A stretch of DNA of 64,000 nt from a virus. The stretch covers positions 1-64,000 of the IMG/VR virus record IMGVR_UViG_3300025030_000064. The stretch is one strand, 5' to 3'. Made by a program: the position numbers and the translations under genes. Shown here in pieces: positions 1 to 38,033 of the stretch. Positions within the stretch are counted from its first letter, which is position 1. Every line of letters starts with the position of its first letter. The notes under the pieces are model-generated. The model saw only the letters and a list, made by a program, of their open reading frames with translations. It did no database searches and was not told the origin of the DNA.

Positions 1-207
1 GATGTTATCCCTGATGTTATCCCTGATGTTATCCCTGATGTTATCCCTGATGTTATCCCTGATGTTATCCCTGATGTTATCCCTGATGTTATCCCTGATG
101 TTATCCCTGATGTTAGCCCAGATGTTATCCCTGATGTTAGCCCAGATGTTATCCCTGATGTTAGTCCCGATGTTAGCCCCGATGTTATCCCTGATGTTAG
201 CCCCGAT
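1..207. repeat. 12-bp tandem repeat (GATGTTATCCCT and variants), coding RDNI on the minus strand
   Basis: Directly visible; about 17 units, the first 9 identical. Confidence 0.97.
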
Positions 208-435
208 GCTAGCTAATATCTGACAGCCTAATGGAGAATCCATAAAAAATACTTTTGGCTTATCTTTTTTACAAAAAGAATATAACCATTCAATTCCTTC
301 TTTTGCTTTTACTTTATCTATTTCTTGATCTTTATAAAAAAGATTTAACCATTCATTTCTAATGATAGGAATTAAAGCCTCTTGTTCTGGAGTTAATGAT
401 TCTAATTTGACGATATCAGTTTTTTGTTGTTTCAT
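1..435 (-). CDS. Tetrapeptide-repeat protein, DUF6745-like N-terminus; 3' end runs off the window
   Basis: Manual translation from ATG at 435: MKQQKTDIVKLESLTPEQEALIPIIRNEWL...FMDSPLGCQILASIGANI(RDNI/GANI/WANI)n, open to position 1. The LTPEQEAL..W..DSP pattern followed by repeats resembles DUF6745 proteins. Missing from the ORF track because no stop lies in the window. Confidence 0.8.
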   Translation of the reverse strand, partial: MKQQKTDIVKLESLTPEQEALIPIIRNEWLNLFYKDQEIDKVKAKEGIEWLYSFCKKDKPKVFFMDSPLGCQILASIGANIRDNIGANIGTNIRDNIWANIRDNIWANIRDNIRDNIRDNIRDNIRDNIRDNIRDNIRDNIRDNI

Positions 436-455
436 ATTATATTGTTTTTATTGAT

Positions 456-1130
456 TTAAAGATTGTTAGATATCCATTGATTAACACGTTCAGGAGAATA
501 TATTACTTTTTCTTTATACATAGTACCAGAAATTAAATGTATTAATACTATTACTTCTTCTTTATTCCATGAATCTTTAATTTTGCGAATAGTGATATTG
601 TTTGCTTTATCTGTTTTAGGTGACATTCCACAAGCACATTCATACTTTGCTTCAATATAATTCCATGTATCACAATTAACACATCTTCTTCCTGCATATC
701 CACTGCTTTTTTCTGATTCCCAATTACCATTAGTTTCATATTCTACCATTACAAATTCGATTACAGAGCCTTTATTATATTCTGATATAAATACATCAAT
801 AAACTCTTTAGAAGGTGTAGGAAGACCTAATGAGGTATCTGTAGTAGCTATTATCTTTTTACTATTCCTACCTATTATTTGTATTCCACCAATATCTAAT
901 ATCTGAATAGGTTTTTGATGACGTTCGCTAAAATACCAATCGTTAAATTGTGGTTTGTTCTCACTTAAAAAATAAAGATGATGACTACTAGAATGCACAT
1001 TATGTAAATACTCTTGAGTTATATATCCCTTATGATAAGCTAACTTACCATTACTAAGGATAACAAGACAATTTTCTGCTTTTTCATTACTTGGCAGCAT
1101 AACAAGTTTTACTCTTTTAAAATTTGTCAT
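456..1130 (-). CDS. Hypothetical phage protein with a CxxC...CxC insert
   Basis: 224-aa ORF; KIIATTD...VMVEYE...KDSWNKEEV pattern seen in Bacteroidota phage proteins. Confidence 0.8.
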   Translation of the reverse strand: MTNFKRVKLVMLPSNEKAENCLVILSNGKLAYHKGYITQEYLHNVHSSSHHLYFLSENKPQFNDWYFSERHQKPIQILDIGGIQIIGRNSKKIIATTDTSLGLPTPSKEFIDVFISEYNKGSVIEFVMVEYETNGNWESEKSSGYAGRRCVNCDTWNYIEAKYECACGMSPKTDKANNITIRKIKDSWNKEEVIVLIHLISGTMYKEKVIYSPERVNQWISNNL

Positions 1131-1175
1131 AGGACATTCATTTTTAAGGTTTATATTAATTGATTTGATTTAAAG

Positions 1176-1247
1176 TTAAAAAGAAAGATTCACTCTGCTA
1201 CATTGCAATATAAATTGTCAACTACATTGATATTGTCTTTCCTTTAA
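1176..1247 (-). promoter_or_regulatory. Helix-closed intergenic RNA element ending in a U-tract (terminator/attenuator-like)
   Basis: Minus strand AAAGGAAAGA pairs with UCUUUCUUUU (one G-U); internal hairpin CAAUGUAG/UUAUAUUG. Confidence 0.5.
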
Positions 1248-1253
1248 TAGTTA

Positions 1254-1913
1254 TTATAAGTTATTTGCAGATTCTTTTAACTCATTAGATTTTTGTATTA
1301 ACTCTTCTGCTTTTAATAATAATTCTTGTTTTTTAGAATTATTATTATCATATGGTAATCCTGTTTCAACTAGAATACCATAAGCTATAGTTCCTGATTC
1401 TAATTTACCACAAGTAATAGTTTTTTCACTATCATTACTTAATTGTTTCCACCAACAAGTACCTGCAAAAATATTAAAATTTACAGAAAGTATAAATTTA
1501 CAAGTTATAGATAATCCACAAACGATTCCACTACCAACTTTGATTCCCCAACCAGCTTCGATTCCCCAACCAGCTTCGATTCCCCAACCAGCTTCGATTC
1601 CCCAACCAGCTTCGATTCCCCAACCAGCTTCGATTCCACTACCAACTTTGATTCCCCAACCAGCTTCGATTCCCCAACCAGCTTCGATTCCCCAACCAGC
1701 TTCGATTCCCCAACCAGCTTCGATTCCACTACCAACTTTGATTCCACTACCAACTTTGGCTAAAATATATCCTTTAGCTTTAAATGATATATTTTTAACA
1801 TAACCTAAATTTGATTCAACTTCGATATTACCATCAAAATTAGTTAAATCTTCTTTGCCAATATAATTATTATTAGCATCAAGATGTTCTTTTGTAATTA
1901 CAAATGTTTTCAT
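1254..1913 (-). CDS. GIEAGW/GIKVGS hexapeptide-repeat protein (probable beta-solenoid)
   Basis: 219-aa ORF with about 13 hexapeptide repeats between unique N- and C-terminal parts. Confidence 0.85.
   Translation of the reverse strand: MKTFVITKEHLDANNNYIGKEDLTNFDGNIEVESNLGYVKNISFKAKGYILAKVGSGIKVGSGIEAGWGIEAGWGIEAGWGIEAGWGIKVGSGIEAGWGIEAGWGIEAGWGIEAGWGIEAGWGIKVGSGIVCGLSITCKFILSVNFNIFAGTCWWKQLSNDSEKTITCGKLESGTIAYGILVETGLPYDNNNSKKQELLLKAEELIQKSNELKESANNL
1523..1757. repeat. 18-bp tandem repeat with two unit types
   Basis: Units GATTCCCCAACCAGCTTC and GATTCCACTACCAACTTT, directly visible. Confidence 0.97.
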
Positions 1914-1954
1914 AATTGATTGATTTATATTAGTATTTAATTAATTTCAAAGTT

Positions 1955-2002
1955 AAAAAACAACTGCTCATAAAGACCAAACATTATAATATGAGCAATT
2001 GC
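1955..2002 (-). terminator. Intrinsic terminator-like hairpin
   Basis: Minus strand GCAAUUGCUCAUA/UAUGAGCAGUUGU 13-bp stem, 17-nt loop, then a U-run. Confidence 0.65.
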
Positions 2003-2010
2003 TTTATAAA

Positions 2011-2213
2011 AAGACTCTTCATTATCCTTGCCAGATGGATATGCTGTATATTAGGGTTTCCTAACGTGGCTTTAACTCTAGAGTCTAGCCTTGCATCTTA
2101 CACAATAGATAACGCTACTCTGGCGTAGCTATGATAAAGCATATTCTCTATGCCAAGTTTCTATCCCATGTACAATGGTTATCATTATCATATAATTCAG
2201 TTTGAAGAGCCTT
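2011..2213 (-). ncRNA. Candidate ~200-nt multibranch structured RNA, family unrecognised
   Basis: Closing helix AAGGCUCUUCA/UGAAGAGUCUU plus internal helices GAUAAC/GUUAUC, CCAU/AUGG, GCAUA/UAUGC, GCUAC/GUAGC, GGCU/AGCC, UUAGG/CCUAA, UAUCC/GGAUA; no ORF. Confidence 0.6.
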
Positions 2214-2244
2214 ATATTACTAAACATTCCAAATTTATCAATAA

Positions 2245-2856
2245 TTAGGAATGATTGTGAATGTTAAAATTAGAATTATTTAAATAGTTTTTAATACGAT
2301 AACAAGTATTTGGTGTTAATCCTACATATGGATCTGTTTGAAAGAAATGTTCTTTTTGTTCAGGTAACATATCTGAATCGTCATCAATAATTACATAGTT
2401 GTCAATATTGTCATATTTATTAAGAAAGTCTTGTATTTCTGTTCCTCTTAATGTTCTACGTGTATTAGTGATTCCAACATAAGTGTTCCTTGGAAAACCA
2501 ATAGCATTGAACCATTTATCCCAATCATTAGTATCTTTAAAATGATTTTTCCATACAGATGAAATACAAATCTTAGCTTGTGTATCAATACATAATCTAT
2601 TCAACCATTCCCATTTAACAGAATCAGTTTCTTCTTTTAATCGCTTATAAGTATAATTATAACTAAACAGGTCTTTTGGTGATTTATGATTAAGCAATGA
2701 AACAGATTTGTATTTAAACCCATTAAATATCCACTTAATCTTTGATTTAAGCCACCATTTATATGTATTGTAATGTAGCCATCTCTTCCTATACCTTGCA
2801 AGGTAAAACAGCTCAGAATTCATTACTCCGTCAATATCAAGAAATATTACTTTCAT
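2245..2856 (-). CDS. HAD-superfamily phosphatase (HAD domain of Swiss-Army-Knife RNA repair type)
   Basis: N-terminal KVIFLDIDGVMN (DxD), central ISSVW, C-terminal YVIIDDDSDM. Confidence 0.85.
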   Translation of the reverse strand: MKVIFLDIDGVMNSELFYLARYRKRWLHYNTYKWWLKSKIKWIFNGFKYKSVSLLNHKSPKDLFSYNYTYKRLKEETDSVKWEWLNRLCIDTQAKICISSVWKNHFKDTNDWDKWFNAIGFPRNTYVGITNTRRTLRGTEIQDFLNKYDNIDNYVIIDDDSDMLPEQKEHFFQTDPYVGLTPNTCYRIKNYLNNSNFNIHNHS

Positions 2857-2867
2857 AGTTAGTTATA

Positions 2868-2978
2868 TTAAAAAGAAAGATGTAAATATAATAACAGAAA
2901 TACTGTAATTACTTCTATATAGTTGCATACTACCTCAGCGATTACTTCTCATGCCTACTTACACTACATCTTCCTTTA
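2868..2978 (-). promoter_or_regulatory. Helix-closed intergenic RNA element ending in a U-tract
   Basis: Minus strand AAAGGAAGAUGUA/UACAUCUUUCUUU 13 bp; internal hairpin AUAGAAGUA/UAUUUCUGU; shares the 14-mer TTAAAAAGAAAGAT (plus strand) with 1176-1189. Confidence 0.55.
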
Positions 2979-2983
2979 TATTA

Positions 2984-3241
2984 TTAAAGACAACAATGTT
3001 TATATTTCTTTCCTGATCCACATAAGCATTTATTGTTTCTTTGTTGTTTTATCTCTGTTCTAACAGGAGATAATACTACAGATGGTCTATTTCTATATCT
3101 AAAGCTATTAAGTTCTTTCTGTAGTCTTGAATTCTCTAGTTCATTAGAATGAATAAGATATGGTTCCGGTGACATAATATTATTTATATCTACCAAAGTT
3201 GGATCATCAACAACTACTATTCTTTTACTATTCTTTTCCAT
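2984..3241 (-). CDS. Small SEC-C (SecA C-terminal zinc) motif protein
   Basis: C-terminal RNNKCLCGSGKKYKHCC. Confidence 0.85.
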   Translation of the reverse strand: MEKNSKRIVVVDDPTLVDINNIMSPEPYLIHSNELENSRLQKELNSFRYRNRPSVVLSPVRTEIKQQRNNKCLCGSGKKYKHCCL

Positions 3242-3300
3242 GTTAGTTTAATATTTAGTTTAACAATTAATAATACATCTACCTAACGGCAGATAAGTTT

Positions 3301-3412
3301 TGGTTTCACTACAGGCTTCGAACCTGTGACCTTTACGTATAACGTCATCATGCAAGTCTTTCATTGCAGAACTATTACCCATACTGCTCTAACCAACTGA
3401 GCTAAGTGAAAC
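3301..3412 (-). tRNA. tRNA-like gene with an expanded (~38-nt) anticodon loop; anticodon not assignable
   Basis: Acceptor (G)TTTCACT/AGTGAAA(C), canonical D arm TAGCTCAGTTGGTTAGAGC, T arm ACAGG-TTCGAAG-CCTGT, ends ...ACCA; GTATG/TATAC stem encloses 38 nt. Confidence 0.75.
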
Positions 3413-3436
3413 TTGAAATTATATGGCGTATAATTC

Positions 3437-3507
3437 GAAGACAGTAAGGATTCGAACCTCTTTTGCTCAGAGCATTTACCAGGTGGAAGATATCATTCCC
3501 TGTCTTT
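3437..3507 (-). ncRNA. Degenerate tRNA-like element
   Basis: AAGACAG/CTGTCTT acceptor-like stem and GAGG-TTCGAAT-CCTT T arm; D and anticodon arms are non-canonical. Confidence 0.5.
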
Positions 3508-3558
3508 CGTTATTTATAATTCCAATAGTCATTTGCTTTCCAGACTATCCTGAGTTAA

Positions 3559-3804
3559 TTAGTCAAGTATATTAATAGATATAATAGAGATATATTCATC
3601 TTTAAGAAATGGTACAGTCTCTCTAATACCTTTTAATACATTATCAAAGAATTCTTTTCTTTTTTCATCTGTATCTCCTACACTATTACCACTAATAGTT
3701 ATTACCTGAAATCCAAAGTTAGGAACTTTACGATATATAGGTAAAAACCAAGTATACCATTTATATGTCTTAATATGCATATAGCTGATAAATAATGTTC
3801 TCAT
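3559..3804 (-). CDS. Hypothetical protein
   Basis: 81-aa ORF with AAGGAGGA upstream. Confidence 0.65.
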   Translation of the reverse strand: MRTLFISYMHIKTYKWYTWFLPIYRKVPNFGFQVITISGNSVGDTDEKRKEFFDNVLKGIRETVPFLKDEYISIISINILD

Positions 3805-3822
3805 TTATAATCCTCCTTATAT

Positions 3823-3987
3823 TTAATTACTAAAATGTTTATCACAATAACCATAAGTAATACCAGCCTTTGATTTGAATACATGAATAGCTGAACAATC
3901 ACATCCAACAACCATACATACTATCCTACCAGTACTAATCTCATGCTTTCTTAGATCATTAGACTTAACTTTATATTTATTCTTCAT
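3823..3987 (-). CDS. Small putative zinc-finger protein (54 aa)
   Basis: Manual translation MKNKYKVKSND...CMVVGCDCSAIH...YGYCDKHFSN*; below the ORF-track cutoff. Confidence 0.55.
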   Translation of the reverse strand: MKNKYKVKSNDLRKHEISTGRIVCMVVGCDCSAIHVFKSKAGITYGYCDKHFSN

Positions 3988-4158
3988 AGTTTATAAGATT
4001 ATCAAGTACAATAGCCCAACCATTAACGCAACATATTTATATACTCCACCCATAAATACTAATCTACTAACTATATTACTAAATAAGAATAACCATCATA
4101 AGAGAATAGTATAGAGATTAGTTTTATCTTTCCCCTGTTTAGTACTCCCTCATCATCT

Positions 4159-4427
4159 CATGCTTCATATACTAAACATAAATAACTGTATATCATAGCT
4201 ATTACAATGTGATATTAAGTCTAATCTGATAGAGCAGAATAGTATCTTGTTTGATCGATTATATGTCCAAATAAGGCTTAAATATTTACAGCTGTCTTCA
4301 CTCGGGGATAAATTAGACTTTAGTATTGATAATCAGCATTATAATGTTTTTGTAAGTTATTGATAATCATTAAAAGAATATCAGCACATTACAGAGATAT
4401 TTACTAATCCATGCTTCATATACTAAA
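4159..4427. repeat. 18-bp direct repeat CATGCTTCATATACTAAA at 4159-4176 and 4410-4427
   Basis: Two exact copies in a noncoding stretch. Confidence 0.85.
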
Positions 4428-4433
4428 AGAAAC

Positions 4434-4471
4434 AAAAAAAAGTACACCTATATATAATAGGTATACCTTTT
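4434..4471 (-). terminator. Intrinsic terminator after the 4478-4921 gene
   Basis: Minus strand GGUAUACCUAU-UAUAU-AUAGGUGUACU then U7. Confidence 0.8.
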
Positions 4472-4477
4472 AATAGT

Positions 4478-4921
4478 TTATTCGAAGTCTATAAATGTTA
4501 AAACTGCACAATCAGTCCCTTGCCATTGTTTAAATTGAAATTCGCATACTAACTCAATACTACCTTTTAATAATTCAGTGTAAAAGGTTTTTACTTTGTC
4601 TGAGGTAATACGAATAGCAGTGTGTTGCTGGTCGTCAATATCTTTACCAATAACACCAAAATGTACACTGTAACCCTCTTTTTCTGTTACGCTCTTTACT
4701 TCAGGTCGTGGAACTTGCTGCATGGTTCTGAATGTAGCTTTGTAGTAAATTTCATTAACAGTAAGTTTAACTCTCTGAGCCTCTTTACCTGCCAAACATC
4801 TTTCACGAGCTTCTGACAACTCACCTAAGAGCAATCTACTTGCAGACTCTACATTACGCTGAACATGGCTGATTAAGGTATCAGCACTCAAACCATTAGC
4901 ATTTAATTTAATTTTTGCCAT
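4478..4921 (-). CDS. Hypothetical protein, standalone transcription unit (possible first early gene)
   Basis: 147-aa ORF with its own terminator, downstream of the hairpin/G-rich island. Confidence 0.8.
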   Translation of the reverse strand: MAKIKLNANGLSADTLISHVQRNVESASRLLLGELSEARERCLAGKEAQRVKLTVNEIYYKATFRTMQQVPRPEVKSVTEKEGYSVHFGVIGKDIDDQQHTAIRITSDKVKTFYTELLKGSIELVCEFQFKQWQGTDCAVLTFIDFE

Positions 4922-4985
4922 AATACATAAATTTAAGAATTAATAAATAGGTTTAAAATATATTCCCAAAGTTAACCAGTGGTAC

Positions 4986-5002
4986 ACCTTGTGGAACAAG
5001 GT
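4986..5002 (+). promoter_or_regulatory. Perfect 7-bp hairpin with GGA triloop on the template strand of the 4478-4921 gene
   Basis: ACCTTGT-GGA-ACAAGGT; function is inferred only. Confidence 0.4.
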
Positions 5003-5007
5003 CTGAC

Positions 5008-5232
5008 GGGGTAGTGTGTAGGATGGGTTAAGACTCTCACCATCACGGTAAAAAAATATTGGTTTGTATTTTAGGGGGTGATTTATTATGTATTGTATCT
5101 TGCTATTAGTATGTATGTAATATGATGTATGGGGGGGGTGTTTATTGAGTGGGTGGTATAGTGGGGGTATGCTTGCCTGCCGGTAGGTAGGTTTTTATGG
5201 TCGGGGGCTACGCCCTGGGGTTTGAATGGGGG
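5008..5232 (+). other. G/T-skewed noncoding island with multiple G-runs
   Basis: G4-G8 runs at 5008, 5074, 5131, 5163, 5203, 5217 and 5228 in an AT-rich genome. Confidence 0.8.
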
Positions 5233-5235
5233 TAT

Positions 5236-5264
5236 AAAAAAACCTACTTATTTAAGGTAGGTTT
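5236..5264 (-). terminator. Intrinsic terminator for the 5.3-6.7 kb minus operon
   Basis: Minus strand ACCUACCUUAAAUAAGUAGG followed by U7. Confidence 0.7.
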
Positions 5265-5284
5265 AGTATTTAATAACTCCTCTA

Positions 5285-5458
5285 TTATATTTCTTTTAGT
5301 TCTTGATAGATAATAGTTACATGATATGGTTGATGAACGATAGTATGAAGTATCTTTACTTCTGGGTTGTTGTCTAAGAATTTGTCCATGTTAAGGTTAA
5401 ATGATGGGCAGTTATCAATATACACTTGTTTTAGTACTTTTTTATATTCTTTATTCAT
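5285..5458 (-). CDS. Small hypothetical protein (57 aa)
   Basis: Manual translation MNKEYKKVLKQVYIDNC...YQELKEI*; tightly packed in the operon. Confidence 0.5.
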   Translation of the reverse strand: MNKEYKKVLKQVYIDNCPSFNLNMDKFLDNNPEVKILHTIVHQPYHVTIIYQELKEI

Positions 5459-5459
5459 A

Positions 5460-5775
5460 TTATAATTTCATTTTTTTAGCGATTTCTTTTGCAAGATAAG
5501 ACATTAGATAAGCATATGCTTCATCACTAGTATCTAAGTCTAATGTCATTCCTATTCTTTCTAATATAAAGGTAGTGGCATGAAAGACTTCGTGAGTAAT
5601 ATTATAAATAGTATCTGATTTCTTTAATTGACTCCTAAATCTTATTATCGTTTTGGTTTATTATATTCATTATTGTCTTTAATCCAAGATTAGATTCTAT
5701 ATTATAGAAATAGTTATTGTCATTTAGGTTACTCCAATCTTGTGGATACGTTATGGTTAATTGTAATTCTTCCAT
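5460..5775 (-). pseudogene. Frameshifted or truncated HExxH metallopeptidase-like gene
   Basis: 5460-5657 encodes TKTIIRF...ITHEVFHATTFILERIGM...DEAYAYLM but lies behind TAA TAA with no ATG before the motif; the ATG ORF 5775-5635 overlaps it in another frame. Confidence 0.5.
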
Positions 5776-5779
5776 ATGG

Positions 5780-6112
5780 TTATTTAGGTTGTGTTTTACG
5801 TAATCTACTTTCTTCTGACTCTTGATTAGTATCTAAAGGAAATACAATATTGCAAAATTCATCAACTGCTTTTATTTGCACCTTACCTAATATCATTGCA
5901 TTATATGCCATACAATGTATTTTTTGTAATAATTCACATTTGATTTCTTTTGTATCCATGTCTATATGATCAAAAAAATATCCTGTTGTAATAGATATTT
6001 TATACCATTTACCTCTATGTTTTTTCCTAAGAGTTGTACTTAAGGATATCCCTATTTCATTTTCAAAAATATGTATCTCTGGATAAATATATCCTTCTGG
6101 TGACTTTTTCAT
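5780..6112 (-). CDS. Hypothetical protein
   Basis: 110-aa ORF in a tightly packed operon. Confidence 0.7.
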   Translation of the reverse strand: MKKSPEGYIYPEIHIFENEIGISLSTTLRKKHRGKWYKISITTGYFFDHIDMDTKEIKCELLQKIHCMAYNAMILGKVQIKAVDEFCNIVFPLDTNQESEESRLRKTQPK

Positions 6113-6116
6113 AAGA

Positions 6117-6350
6117 CTATTTATTTATTGTTTCTTGCTTATCTAATTTATCTAAATCTGCTTTAACTTTTCTTCTAAACATTATCAATGCTCTTAAATC
6201 CTCCTTACATTGATCGCATACAAGCAAATTGGTCTTAGGAAAATATTCTATATTGAAACTTTGATAACCATCACATAGTTCACATTTGAATGACAATACT
6301 CCAGTACCATCATCTCTCTTTACTACTGAATAAATAGTTTCATCTTCCAT
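6117..6350 (-). CDS. Small zinc-ribbon protein
   Basis: CELC...CDQC. Confidence 0.7.
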   Translation of the reverse strand: MEDETIYSVVKRDDGTGVLSFKCELCDGYQSFNIEYFPKTNLLVCDQCKEDLRALIMFRRKVKADLDKLDKQETINK

Positions 6351-6355
6351 AGTTA

Positions 6356-6670
6356 TTATAACTTAAATTTCTTTTTGAATTCTTGCGTTGTACTGATATG
6401 AACTTCATCTCCTGCCTTTAAAGCATTCCAAGCTTCTTTAGTCATTGTCAGTTCTGCAGTATGGTCTTTACCTATTCCTATAGTCACACTTACTGAATCG
6501 ACATAATACTTTACACTATATCCTACCTTATTAAAGAATGCATTAGCTTTAGGGGAAACGACTATCTGTCTGCCAAACCTAAACATTCCTAAGATGTATT
6601 GCGTGAATTTAATATTCACTGGTCCATCTCCAACCATCTCTACATTTACATTTTCATTCTTATTTTTCAT
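6356..6670 (-). CDS. Hypothetical protein
   Basis: 104-aa ORF directly downstream of a consensus promoter. Confidence 0.75.
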   Translation of the reverse strand: MKNKNENVNVEMVGDGPVNIKFTQYILGMFRFGRQIVVSPKANAFFNKVGYSVKYYVDSVSVTIGIGKDHTAELTMTKEAWNALKAGDEVHISTTQEFKKKFKL

Positions 6671-6700
6671 ATTCCGTATCTAAATATTAATTTATATGCA

Positions 6701-6732
6701 CAAATATATAAAAATAATTCTCTTTCTCCAAA
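6701..6732 (-). promoter_or_regulatory. Bacteroidota sigma-70 promoter
   Basis: Minus strand TTTG-N20-TATATTTG (-33 / -7 TAnnTTTG consensus). Confidence 0.75.
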
Positions 6733-6830
6733 TCTATTCATCAAATTTAACATTTATTTTTACTACTTATTTTCGTTTTATTCAATAGAACCTCTTTTAC
6801 CCTGATAAGATATTTTCTATAAGTAAACTG

Positions 6831-7125
6831 TTGTTACTTGCAGACCGTACCGTATTGTAGCAATTCCCCCCTGATAGACTTTCGTATTATAAAAGGCTGG
6901 GTTGTTAAAAGAGGAACGAAGGTGACGAAACCAAAACAACACAGCTAACTTTATTTACTAATAGAAAGAACGTTTATTTATATTTAGGTCACTGAGGTTA
7001 TCTAACTATATCTTTATCTCATCAGTCGCCAGTTGTTAGGTTAGAACAGAGCTGGACCTTTAACCTCACGGCTACACAGTACATCGTCATTCTTATTTAT
7101 AGAGGTATAGACGATTATTTATTTT
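6831..7125 (+). ncRNA. Candidate structured RNA or ssDNA element
   Basis: Helices TTGTTAC/GTAGCAA, GGCTG-GTTGTT/AACAAC-CAGCT, TGAGGTTA/TAACCTCA, CCAGTT/AGCTGG, ATCGTC/GACGAT; wobbles read G-U on the plus strand. Confidence 0.45.
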
Positions 7126-7175
7126 ATCCTACTATTGCCTTTTAAAGTAGCTATTATTGAACTTAGTCTAAATGC

Positions 7176-7298
7176 AAAAAACCTCTGCGAATATAGAGGT
7201 AGCTATAAACACAAAGGCTTTTTACAGGAAGATATTTCTATCTCCTTGATATTTTCTTTATCTATTGCTACCTCAACAGATGATATAATGCAAATGAA
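7176..7298 (-). ncRNA. Candidate ~125-nt sRNA or attenuator leader ending in a long terminator hairpin
   Basis: Downstream of the promoter at 7306; hairpin AAAAAGCCUUUGUG..UAUAG-CUACCU-CUAUA..CGCAGAGGUUUUUU; upstream GAGGUAGC is complementary to the loop region GCUACCUC. Confidence 0.55.
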
Positions 7299-7305
7299 CG
7301 TATTG

Positions 7306-7338
7306 CAAATATACAACCATTAATATCGTTTTTCCAAA
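7306..7338 (-). promoter_or_regulatory. Bacteroidota sigma-70 promoter (leftward)
   Basis: Minus strand TTTG-N21-TATATTTG. Confidence 0.7.
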
Positions 7339-7357
7339 TAATTTAACATAAATTTTA

Positions 7358-7389
7358 TTTGCATTATAATATGTTTCATTATATATTTG
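7358..7389 (+). promoter_or_regulatory. Bacteroidota sigma-70 promoter (rightward)
   Basis: TTTG-N20-TATATTTG, 32 nt before the ATG at 7422. Confidence 0.75.
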
Positions 7390-7421
7390 TATTTATTATA
7401 ACGAACACTTAATTTATTAAT

Positions 7422-7772
7422 ATGAAATATGCAATAGTAGAAACACGATCAGACATCTTTATTAGAAAGTTCGAAAAAGTATCAAGCAACAATGGTACTG
7501 CTATAAAAGAAATAAAAGATATCCTAAGTAAAGAGAATGTTAAGCACGACTCAGACGTAGTAAGAACACAGGTTGATGTTGGTATTGTAAATTCAAAAGT
7601 AGACAATAAAGAAAACAGGGATGTTAAGGTCGTTTCTATTATTACTGAGAAGGAGTATGGGTTATATAAGAAAGGCTCATTGACAATATCAGACATGATA
7701 GAGAAAGACAATACTCCGAATATGCATGATTGTAATAGATGTATTCACAATAATTTTGAACTTAAAAAATAA
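7422..7772 (+). CDS. Hypothetical protein
   Basis: 116-aa ORF after a promoter. Confidence 0.75.
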   Translation: MKYAIVETRSDIFIRKFEKVSSNNGTAIKEIKDILSKENVKHDSDVVRTQVDVGIVNSKVDNKENRDVKVVSIITEKEYGLYKKGSLTISDMIEKDNTPNMHDCNRCIHNNFELKK

Positions 7773-7788
7773 TTTAAATTAAAAGCGT

Positions 7789-8199
7789 ATGGAAAATCAA
7801 GAACAAGTAACCAAACAGGTGCCTTTAACTAAAGCACAGATTCAACATCAGGAGAATATGCGTAAACAAACTATTCAAAGAGAGAAAGAACAAATGGATG
7901 CAATGCATAAACGTAGAGACTATCTACATTGCTTAGTAGATATTCGTGAACTGGAAGAGAAAGTATTTGGTCAGGATAGTATAATGAATAGTGCTAAACG
8001 TGATAGCTCAATCTTTGCATTAAGATCAGTGAAGGTTGAAGAAGAGGATATCTTATTATATCTTATAAAGAATAAGCTATCTACAGAGAATGATGATAAG
8101 TTATATGCAGAACTGCAGAAGGTAAAAGAAGAACCTAAAAAACCTACAATGAAAGTTTCTAAGAATAAGGCAGAACCAGAATTAAAAGAAGGGAAATAA
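7789..8199 (+). CDS. Hypothetical coiled-coil protein
   Basis: 136-aa ORF in the operon. Confidence 0.75.
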   Translation: MENQEQVTKQVPLTKAQIQHQENMRKQTIQREKEQMDAMHKRRDYLHCLVDIRELEEKVFGQDSIMNSAKRDSSIFALRSVKVEEEDILLYLIKNKLSTENDDKLYAELQKVKEEPKKPTMKVSKNKAEPELKEGK

Positions 8200-8202
8200 T
8201 AT

Positions 8203-8628
8203 ATGGCTAAGAAACAAGATGACTCAGTTATATTAAAAGTCCAATCTAATAATATAAAGAAAGACAAGACTACTACTCAAAAGGTAACAGATATCATAGC
8301 CAGAGAACTACAATCCCCTACTAAACTAAAGGTAATAGGTCAATGGATACTTGTAGAGACAGTAGAGATTAAACCCAGAGAAAAGACAAAAGCAGGAATC
8401 ATATTACCTTCAGGAGAAAACTCTCAGGATAATAAGAAAGAACTCTATTGGGATGAAAATCCTGCTCAGGGAGTAGTAATAGGTGTTGGTAAGTTAGAGT
8501 TAGAAAAAGGAGAGATAAAACCATTAGACTATGTCTACCTGGCAAAGGACCCGAGAAATGCTATCATGCATAATGGTAAATGGTACGCATTAGTAATTGG
8601 TCTTGATATTGCTACAGTAGTGGGCTAA
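8203..8628 (+). CDS. groES: GroES/Cpn10-like co-chaperonin
   Basis: LKVIGQWILVE...EKTKAGIILP...QGVVIGVG matches the GroES mobile loop and flanking strands. Confidence 0.75.
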   Translation: MAKKQDDSVILKVQSNNIKKDKTTTQKVTDIIARELQSPTKLKVIGQWILVETVEIKPREKTKAGIILPSGENSQDNKKELYWDENPAQGVVIGVGKLELEKGEIKPLDYVYLAKDPRNAIMHNGKWYALVIGLDIATVVG

Positions 8629-9032
8629 TGAAAAACACTATAGACATAGAAGTTCAGAAGAAAGATTTTTTAGATTATTATCTGAAAGTATTAACTCCTG
8701 TTATCAATAAGATATGCCATATCCTGTCGGGCAAGATATGCTATCTTAGAGATAGGGAGCTAAAGATAATAGCTGAACTCATGTATTATTATACTACGGC
8801 ACCACAGGTTCATCCGGAAGAAAAGAATAAGTATATATTCTCAGATGTGGTCACTAATGCTATAATGGATAAATATAATTTCTCAATCTATAATTATAAT
8901 AATCTATTATGTGGATTACGAACAGCTGGTGTAATACAAGGAAAAAGAAAACAAAGAACTCTTCATCCTATCTTTTATATGGACATACCTGAAAAAGAAT
9001 ATGTATTAACTTTACGGTTTAAGTTAACATGA
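8628..9032 (+). CDS. Hypothetical protein (possible winged-helix)
   Basis: 134 aa; LRDRELKIIAEL...NNLLCGLRTAGVI pattern. Confidence 0.7.
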   Translation: MKNTIDIEVQKKDFLDYYLKVLTPVINKICHILSGKICYLRDRELKIIAELMYYYTTAPQVHPEEKNKYIFSDVVTNAIMDKYNFSIYNYNNLLCGLRTAGVIQGKRKQRTLHPIFYMDIPEKEYVLTLRFKLT

Positions 9033-38002: not shown

Positions 38003-38033
38003 TTTGATTATATAATATATCTTATTATATTTG
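38003..38033 (+). promoter_or_regulatory. Bacteroidota sigma-70 promoter inside the insertion
   Basis: TTTG-N19-TATATTTG. Confidence 0.7.

What the first reader, a model, noticed from the sequence alone, without database searches (positions are those of the whole stretch)
1955..2213. ~200-nt multibranch RNA directly followed by a terminator hairpin (riboswitch-like or standalone ncRNA)
Seen: an 11-bp closing helix encloses a four-way junction (GAUAAC/GUUAUC holding CCAU/AUGG, GAUAG..GCAUA/UAUGC..UUAUC and GCUAC/GUAGC), a second junction (AUGC/GCAU holding GGCU/AGCC and UUAGG/CCUAA) and a UAUCC/GGAUA hairpin. A 13-bp hairpin with a U-run follows within about 10 nt, upstream of the GIEAGW gene. 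I do not recognise it as a known riboswitch, ribozyme, tmRNA or RNase P. It is the strongest novel-RNA candidate in the window.
Basis: partly seen in the sequence, partly recalled or inferred. Interest (0 to 1): 0.72.

Follow-up and report, generated by a model that had tools for sequence, protein, structure and literature searches.

The report
Orphan folded RNA spacer, crAss-like phage
A 331-base gene-free gap in an uncultured groundwater crAss-like phage probably makes a folded non-coding RNA of about 200-265 bases that ends at a strong terminator, but it has no detectable relatives or expression data, so neither its fold nor its function can be confirmed.

Summary
The helices are real, but on the minus strand (RNA about 2222 to 1955). 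They lie between a HAD_SAK_2 gene (2245-2856) and a GIEAGW-repeat gene (1254-1913) of a 93.5-kb groundwater crAss-like phage.

Robust parts are the 11-bp closing helix, three hairpins and a strong terminator hairpin with U6. The core folds better than shuffles (z about -3) and ranks 11th of 1866 genome windows. That is suggestive, not decisive.

Rfam gives nothing. Core and terminator fold independently, so a riboswitch is not supported. A Bacteroidota-type TAnnTTTG motif lies just upstream of the fold. A second one after the terminator sits at the spacing seen before five other genes.

No homologue was found anywhere I could search: 80 HAD loci, 80 GIEAGW loci, 43 related crAss records, phi14:2, and pattern scans of viral, metagenome and genome collections. 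Other runs hold the identical strain. Covariation is therefore untestable.

Best reading (0.4): an orphan, terminator-bounded structured RNA of the kind reported as unexplained early intergenic RNAs of phi14:2. This scan noted similar units before in other crAss-like phages. Rivals are a 3' spacer module or a chance fold.

The parts
2245..2856 (-). Upstream gene: HAD_SAK_2 family phosphatase-like protein, 203 aa
   Evidence: Pfam PF18143, E 1.6e-21. 1312 homologues, the best 64% identical. 70% nucleotide identity to megaphage LR756501; the match ends at the gene end.
2230..2237 (-). TAAATTTG, a Bacteroidota-type -7 promoter-like motif, 8 nt after the HAD stop codon and 16 nt before the closing helix. 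No ORF follows it.
   Evidence: Weak on its own: the motif is not enriched genome-wide (91 seen, 86 expected).
2203..2213 (-). 5' strand of the closing helix (AAGGCUCUUCA)
   Evidence: Pairs with 2021-2011; pair probability 0.73-1.0.
2022..2202 (-). Enclosed multi-hairpin domain. Robust hairpins at 2129-2114, 2090-2068 and 2064-2051. Junction helices are ambiguous.
   Evidence: GC is 0.36 against about 0.27-0.30 in the flanks.
2119..2124 (-). Hairpin loop GCCAGA, perfectly complementary to UCUGGC (2035-2030) in the loop of the UAUCC/GGAUA hairpin: a possible kissing-loop contact
   Evidence: A pair of this kind occurs in 3.7% of shuffles and 7.3% of genome windows, so it is only a weak hint.
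2011..2021 (-). 3' strand of the closing helix (UGAAGAGUCUU), running into UCUUUUUA (2014-2007)
   Evidence: The same UCUUUUUA ends the helix-closed modules of the two neighbouring spacers.
1955..2006 (-). Intrinsic terminator: 13-16 bp stem, 17-nt loop, U6 tail (1960-1955)
   Evidence: dG -18.5 kcal/mol, pair probability about 1.0, two G-U pairs specific to the minus strand.
1948..1955 (-). TAACTTTG, promoter-like motif for the GIEAGW gene, 35 nt before its ATG and overlapping the terminator's U-run
   Evidence: Five other genes carry the motif 31-36 nt before their ATG. It lies in a 29-nt repeat shared with the spacer before gene 456-1130 (D9).
1254..1913 (-). Downstream gene: GIEAGW hexapeptide-repeat protein, 219 aa
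   Evidence: 135 homologous loci in IMG/VR.

Best explanation
The minus strand of the gap 2244-1914 encodes a non-coding, highly folded RNA.

Shown:
- A domain of about 200 nt has its ends clamped by an 11-bp helix (2213-2203 with 2021-2011) that encloses at least four hairpins.
- Eight nt later comes a strong, constitutive intrinsic terminator (2002-1955).
- No usable ORF lies in the gap, and the domain matches no known RNA family.

Inferred:
- Transcription enters from the TAAATTTG motif at 2237-2230 (start near 2222), by read-through from the HAD gene, or both.
- It stops at the U6 tract. This releases an RNA of about 265 nt (or a structured 3' domain of the HAD message) whose paired ends and terminal hairpin shield it from exonucleases, so it accumulates.
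- The next gene is then expressed from its own promoter-like motif (1955-1948).

By position and design it is an orphan example of the unexplained structured RNAs made from long intergenic regions among the early genes of crAss-like phages. The precedent is the g004-g005 and g005-g006 RNAs of phi14:2. My working guess is that it acts in trans as a stable protein-binding or decoy RNA. That last step is inference only.
For: - Genome: a crAss-like phage. TerL is 41% identical to gut crAss phages, it has a 4955-aa ORF, and it matches crAss portal and MCP PHROGs.
- The gap: 331 nt with no ORF, in a genome that is 88% coding.
- Fold energy: z -3.5 with the terminator, about -3 for the core, rank 11 of 1866 genome windows, and the best of all leftward-arm spacers.
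- GC is raised to 0.36.
- The terminator is strong and strand-specific.
- A promoter-like motif lies upstream with no ORF behind it. A second lies after the terminator, at the 31-36 nt spacing seen before five other genes.
- No Rfam, tRNA or protein-family explanation fits.
- Precedent: abundant, early, stable intergenic RNAs of unknown function in phi14:2 (bioRxiv 10.1101/2020.03.07.982082, read).
Against: - No homologue was found in anything I could search, so not one base pair has comparative support.
- Four other runs hold the identical strain with no variants.
- The interior fold is poorly defined. The MFE has a frequency of 0.001, the junction helices have probability below 0.3, and ensemble diversity is no better than in shuffles.
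- The plus strand scores as well for the core.
- About ten other windows, some of them coding, fold as well.
- TAnnTTTG is not enriched overall.
- The candidate kissing loop is within chance, 4-7%.
- No antisense target lies in the phage genome beyond chance.
Confidence: 0.4

Rival explanations
1. It is a 3'-end or intercistronic spacer module, not a gene of its own. The fold would be an enlarged member of the helix-closed modules that follow three successive genes (after 1254-1913, 2245-2856 and 2984-3241). Each starts 6-31 nt after a stop codon with (A)AAGG and ends with UCUUUUUA. They would act as stabilising, processing (RNase III-type) or leaky-terminator hairpins in a polycistronic message. 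The second hairpin would be the true terminator of the SEC-C/HAD unit.
For: - UCUUUUUA on the minus strand occurs 13 times in 93.5 kb. Three of these fall in the three successive spacers, 581 nt in total, where about 0.08 are expected.
- In each of the three, UCUUUUUA closes a 10-13 bp helix with the same G-U position.
- Spacer 2857-2983 folds with z -2.8 on the minus strand only.
- Only 17 nt, with no promoter motif, separate that module from the HAD start codon. The HAD gene must therefore be read through it, which makes the modules intercistronic.
Against: - The other two modules are simple 70-110 nt hairpins, whereas this one encloses about 180 nt with several independent hairpins.
- Spacer 1131-1253 is not significantly structured (z -0.1).
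- This module alone has extra sequence with a promoter-like motif before it and a separate strong terminator after it.
- An 11-bp helix is short for RNase III.
Confidence: 0.25
2. It has no function. The stretch is leftover DNA at the joint between two horizontally acquired accessory gene cassettes (HAD and the GIEAGW-repeat gene), and its fold is a chance outlier that a reader picked from 64 kb.
For: - Both flanking genes are mobile. The HAD gene is 70% identical at the DNA level to a 735-kb megaphage, with the match ending at the gene end.
- GIEAGW homologues sit in 135 unrelated viral contigs, without this spacer.
- The element is an orphan (all searches).
- The interior fold is ill-defined.
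- Comparable z-scores occur in coding windows.
Against: - The fold energy lies in the top 0.6% of the genome even though the stretch is non-coding.
- GC is raised.
- The closing helix ends in a signal shared with the neighbouring spacers.
- A dedicated strong terminator and promoter-like motifs frame it exactly.
- Phage genomes rarely keep 200 nt of inert DNA.
Confidence: 0.25
3. It is a riboswitch or other cis-acting leader that controls the GIEAGW gene through the terminator.
For: The order structured domain, then terminator, then gene is that of a transcriptional riboswitch.
Against: - There is no alternative pairing between domain and terminator. Both form with probability about 1, and opening the terminator costs 17 kcal/mol uncompensated.
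- No Rfam riboswitch matches at E up to 10.
- The gene has its own promoter-like motif downstream of the terminator.
- Homologous genes elsewhere lack any long leader.
Confidence: 0.04
4. It is a small protein gene or a DNA-level element such as an origin or recombination site.
For: A 32-aa ORF (2227-2129, minus strand) and a 45-aa ORF (1991-2128, plus strand) exist. The core is equally stable on both strands.
Against: - The peptides match no Pfam or PHROG family at E up to 1.
- The 32-aa ORF's ATG lies only 2 nt after the promoter-like motif.
- No repeats or iterons are present, and there is no second copy in the genome.
Confidence: 0.05

Closest known systems
Early long intergenic non-coding RNAs of the crAss-like Cellulophaga phage phi14:2 (g004-g005 and g005-g006 junctions; Drobysheva et al., bioRxiv 10.1101/2020.03.07.982082)
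   Same: Both are long ORF-free gaps among small leftward or early accessory genes of a crAss-like phage, oriented with the flanking genes. In both cases the function is unknown.
   Different: There is no sequence or model similarity to the phi14:2 early region; R1 gives only short hairpin matches. The phi14:2 regions are about 700 nt each, whereas this one is about 200-265 nt. Expression is shown for phi14:2 and unknown here.
Intercistronic RNase III hairpins of the T7 early operon, and moron-type promoter/terminator framing (from general knowledge, not tested here)
   Same: Structured elements sit between consecutive small early or accessory genes. Each cassette is framed by its own signals.
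   Different: This element is multibranched and much larger than an RNase III site. Cleavage has not been tested.
Bacterial Y RNA / YrlA (Ro60-bound RNAs whose ends form a long stem closing a multibranch, tRNA-like module)
   Same: The 5' and 3' ends pair in a closing helix around a multi-helix domain. The neighbouring gene belongs to an RNA-repair-associated HAD family. crAss001 encodes a TROVE protein among its early genes (PMC8375218).
   Different: No Rfam Y RNA match. No tRNA-like call. No TROVE or RtcB gene in this phage.

Membership tests
Any Rfam 15 family (riboswitches, ribozymes, tmRNA, RNase P, 6S, Y RNA, group I/II introns, GOLLD/ROOL etc.) | Covariance-model score at or above the gathering threshold | tested here: not met
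   No match in the whole window or in the rest of the genome. At E up to 10 in 1800-2400 there are only two spurious AT-rich matches, both outside the element.
Transcriptional riboswitch | Aptamer pairing and terminator pairing are mutually exclusive (an overlapping expression platform) | tested here: not met
   The closing helix and the terminator both have probability about 1. The constrained fold shows no antiterminator.
Transcriptional riboswitch | The leader is conserved upstream of homologous genes | tested here: not met
   58 GIEAGW-gene loci have upstream gaps of 150 nt or less, with no CM, nhmmer or blastn match.
Intrinsic (factor-independent) terminator | Stable hairpin directly followed by a U-run on the transcribed strand | tested here: met
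   13-16 bp stem, dG -18.5 kcal/mol, U6 at 1960-1955, minus strand only.
crAss-like phage early intergenic ncRNAs (phi14:2 type) | Long ORF-free region among early or accessory genes of a crAss-like phage, in the same orientation as the genes | tested here: met
   The terminator fixes the orientation.
crAss-like phage early intergenic ncRNAs (phi14:2 type) | Abundant, early and persistent transcript | not testable with these tools
   No RNA data could be used here; the host is uncultured.
crAss-like phage early intergenic ncRNAs (phi14:2 type) | Sequence or structure homology to the phi14:2 RNAs | tested here: not met
   R1 run over phi14:2 1-9000 with filters off gives only 27-50 nt hairpin matches.
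Y RNA / YrlA | Ro60 (TROVE) partner and a tRNA-like module | tested here: not met
   No TROVE gene. ARAGORN finds nothing on this strand even at 70% thresholds.
Retron / DGR RNA | An adjacent reverse transcriptase | tested here: not met
   No RVT_1 match in the genome.
Structured ncRNA in general | Base pairs kept by compensatory changes in homologues | not testable with these tools
   No homologue was found.

The most novel reading that the evidence does not exclude
The domain is the founding member of a new class of about 200-nt structured phage RNA. Its compact, end-clamped fold would perhaps be locked by the GCCAGA/UCUGGC loop-loop contact. It would act in trans during early infection of a groundwater Bacteroidota-type host, for example by sequestering a host RNA-binding, RNA-repair or defence protein.
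Probability: 0.1. Interest if true: 0.6.

Novelty: new member of a known kind. Interest (0 to 1): 0.3.

Why it matters
crAss-like phages repeatedly carry ORF-free, folded, promoter-to-terminator units among their first-expressed genes. The only published case (phi14:2) shows such RNAs are abundant and stable, yet their function is unknown.

A groundwater lineage with yet another unrelated unit would add to the picture that these phages invest in diverse early non-coding RNAs. This copy is an orphan, so it cannot advance the question until relatives or transcripts are available.

Tried and rejected
**Known families**
- Rfam at gathering and E-value thresholds gave nothing.
- ARAGORN at default and relaxed thresholds gave nothing on this strand.

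**Homologue searches, all negative**
- blastn against GenBank phages. One chance 39-nt hit. Over 8 kb, only the HAD gene matches.
- Exact or gapped patterns in viral contigs. The one 18-mer hit lies inside a 500-aa ORF of an unrelated phage.
- Two patterns in metagenome contigs.
- One pattern in genome contigs. It gave two hits, the number expected by chance, and only the hairpin matches.
- Single-sequence CM R1, run over:
  - 80 HAD loci;
  - the phage's own genome;
  - 43 crAss-like records with MCP 43-64% identical;
  - phi14:2;
  - 80 GIEAGW loci;
  - the megaphage HAD locus.
- nhmmer and blastn over the same loci.

- Close relatives by HAD or portal protein in IMG/VR: none.
The contigs of the nearest MCP relatives (P0122-P0125, 61-74% identical, in Logan/ENA) could therefore not be fetched.

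**Sequencing runs**
- No RNA holder was listed.
- Contigs of four groundwater or soil runs carry the identical sequence with no variants in the spacer.

**Other checks**
- Alternative genetic codes open no long frame.
- Peptides from the gap have no Pfam or PHROG match.
- The kissing-loop statistic is within chance.
- The antisense-target search in the phage genome is at chance level.
- Literature searches for further crAss ncRNA reports found nothing beyond phi14:2.

Full report
**Where and what**

The finding lies in the 331-nt gap 1914-2244. The two flanking genes both run on the minus strand.
- Upstream is a HAD_SAK_2 family protein (2245-2856; Pfam E 1.6e-21).
- Downstream is a 219-aa protein built on GIEAGW hexapeptide repeats (1254-1913).

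The record is a 93.5-kb, about 94% complete IMG/VR virus. It is a crAss-like phage.
- It carries crAss-type terminase, portal and major head proteins.
- It has a 4955-aa ORF.
- Its terminase is 41% identical to gut crAss-like phages.

Runs that hold it are groundwater and soil metagenomes.

**The observation**

Their support differs.
- In the thermodynamic ensemble, the 11-bp closing helix (2213-2203 with 2021-2011) and three hairpins (2129-2114, 2090-2068, 2064-2051) have pair probabilities of 0.9-1.0.
- The ensemble is no better defined than that of shuffled sequences.

The terminator is solid. It has a 13-16 bp stem (2002-1990 with 1972-1960, plus an A/U extension), a 17-nt loop and a U6 tail. 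Its dG is -18.5 kcal/mol. Two of its pairs are G-U, so it works only on the minus strand.

Stability exceeds chance.

| Stretch | z | Note |
|---|---|---|
| 295 nt with terminator | -3.5 | 0 of 200 shuffles as good |
| Core 2008-2216, minus strand | -3.27 | |
| Core 2008-2216, plus strand | -3.26 | |
| Core 2008-2216, repeat | -2.9 | 1 of 150 shuffles |
| Looser frame 2012-2233 | -2.07 | 7 of 200 shuffles |

Against the genome itself, after regression on composition, the core ranks 11th of 1866 windows. Several coding windows score alike, and my window was framed on the element. It is the best-folding spacer of the leftward arm. GC rises to 0.36 from about 0.27-0.30.

**What it is not**

- **Known RNA families.** No Rfam family matches at gathering scores in the window or in the rest of the genome. 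None matches at E up to 10 around the element. There is no tRNA or tmRNA, even at 70% ARAGORN thresholds on this strand.
- **A protein gene.** The gap opens no long frame under TAG=Q or TGA=W. Its short peptides match no Pfam or PHROG family.
- **A partner-dependent RNA.** The phage has no reverse transcriptase, TROVE or RtcB gene that would point to a retron or DGR RNA or a Y RNA partner.
- **A riboswitch.**
  - The folded domain and the terminator are independent. Both form with probability about 1, and forcing the terminator open costs about 17 kcal/mol with no alternative pairing into the domain.
  - Homologues of the downstream gene in 58 other phage loci have upstream gaps of 150 nt or less, median about 3 nt.
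  - A promoter-like motif for the gene lies after the terminator.

**Signals around it**

TAnnTTTG, the Bacteroidota -7 box (from general knowledge), is not enriched overall: 91 seen against 86 expected. However, six genes carry it 31-36 nt before their ATG, among them the GIEAGW gene (1955-1948, overlapping the terminator's U-run). That stretch is also a 29-nt repeat shared with the spacer before gene 456-1130 (D9).

A further copy (TAAATTTG, 2237-2230) lies 8 nt after the HAD stop codon and 16 nt before the closing helix, with no ORF behind it. The layout therefore reads: promoter-like motif, folded domain, terminator, next gene's promoter.

The neighbouring spacers hold simpler helix-closed hairpins with the same ends, (A)AAGG ... 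UCUUUUUA. UCUUUUUA occurs 13 times on this strand in 93.5 kb. Three of these fall in the three successive spacers, where about 0.08 are expected.

Only 17 nt without a promoter motif separate the module at 2868-2978 from the HAD start codon. The HAD gene must therefore be read through that module. These modules are thus at least partly intercistronic, and the folded domain will also be transcribed as the 3' end of the HAD message.

**Comparative evidence: none obtainable**

*The phage has no close relatives in the collections I could fetch from.*
- Single-protein searches with HAD and portal found nothing.
- The best capsid relatives in IMG/VR are 43-64% identical.
- Those at 61-74% sit on short Logan/ENA contigs.

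*A covariance model built from the single sequence (R1) found only itself.*
- the window and its own genome;
- beside 80 HAD homologues;
- in 43 whole crAss-like records;
- in the phi14:2 early region;
- beside 80 GIEAGW homologues;
- beside the megaphage HAD gene.

*Sequence-level searches agree.*
- nhmmer and blastn found nothing.
- Pattern scans of the viral, metagenome and genome collections gave nothing, or chance hairpin hits only.
- Contigs of four other runs carry the identical sequence.

The decisive test, covariation, could therefore not be made.

**Interpretation**

Published work on the crAss-like phage phi14:2 reports two long intergenic regions among its early genes. They are transcribed early, more strongly than most genes, and persist; their function is unknown (bioRxiv 10.1101/2020.03.07.982082).

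Earlier notes of this scan describe several ORF-free promoter-to-terminator RNA units in other crAss-like phages. I used these only as leads. None shares sequence with this element.

My best reading (0.4) is an orphan member of that kind: a terminator-bounded, end-clamped folded RNA, made from its own promoter-like motif, as the 3' domain of the HAD message, or both. Its role is unknown and probably in trans.

| Rival reading | Confidence |
|---|---|
| Enlarged copy of the helix-closed 3' / intercistronic modules | 0.25 |
| Chance fold in joint DNA between two horizontally acquired cassettes | 0.25 |
| Riboswitch | 0.04 |
| Small ORF or DNA-level element | 0.05 |

On the chance-fold rival: the HAD gene is 70% identical in DNA to a 735-kb megaphage, with the match ending at the gene end.

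It occurs by chance in 4-7% of controls.

**Verdict**

The structure and terminator are real, and the element belongs to no known RNA family. It is a plausible but unverifiable ncRNA, of a kind already seen in crAss-like phages. Interest is modest until relatives or transcripts are found.

Noticed in passing
window 1176-1247, 2011-2213, 2868-2978 (minus strand): Three successive spacers hold helix-closed modules that start with (A)AAGG soon after a stop codon and end with UCUUUUUA. UCUUUUUA occurs 13 times on this strand in the genome, and 3 of these fall in these 581 nt. The module at 2868-2978 folds with z -2.8 on the minus strand only and lies 17 nt before the HAD start codon, so it must be intercistronic.
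   Followed up: partly
window 1948-1955, 6701-6708, 7382-7389, 38026-38033; genome 89691-89698, 90032-90039: TAnnTTTG lies at a fixed 31-36 nt before the ATG of six genes. This suggests host (Bacteroidota-type) promoters, and so a Bacteroidota-like host for this groundwater phage.
   Followed up: partly
window 1154-1182 and 1931-1959: A 29-nt direct repeat (76% identical), TTTTTAACTTT(A/G)AAAT..., lies just upstream of two consecutive genes. It is probably a shared promoter region.
   Followed up: no
genome 68921-69129 (outside the window; L245 4921-5129), minus strand: The most stably folded stretch of the whole genome (composition-adjusted z -6.5; shuffle z -5.2). It is a 210-nt spacer between two minus-strand genes, with a long branched hairpin and a perfect 13-bp hairpin capped CCCGAAGGG. 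It has no Rfam match.
   Followed up: partly
window 2260-2857: The HAD_SAK_2 gene is 70% identical at the DNA level to a gene of the 735-kb uncultured megaphage LR756501/LR756503. The match stops at the gene end, which suggests horizontal exchange of the gene alone.
   Followed up: partly
window 1254-1913: The GIEAGW/GIKVGS hexapeptide-repeat protein, built on 18-nt DNA repeats, has 135 homologous loci in IMG/VR, mostly on 35-60 kb contigs. There the genes are tightly packed with their upstream neighbours.
   Followed up: partly
window 3302-3411 (minus strand): ARAGORN calls a tRNA-Val-like gene with a 31-nt insert, but only with the intron option and thresholds lowered to 80%. The whole genome has no standard tRNA.
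   Followed up: no
window 1-435: The first ORF runs off the record into 12-nt tandem repeats (NIRD/DVIP units). The record may end inside a repeat array.
   Followed up: no
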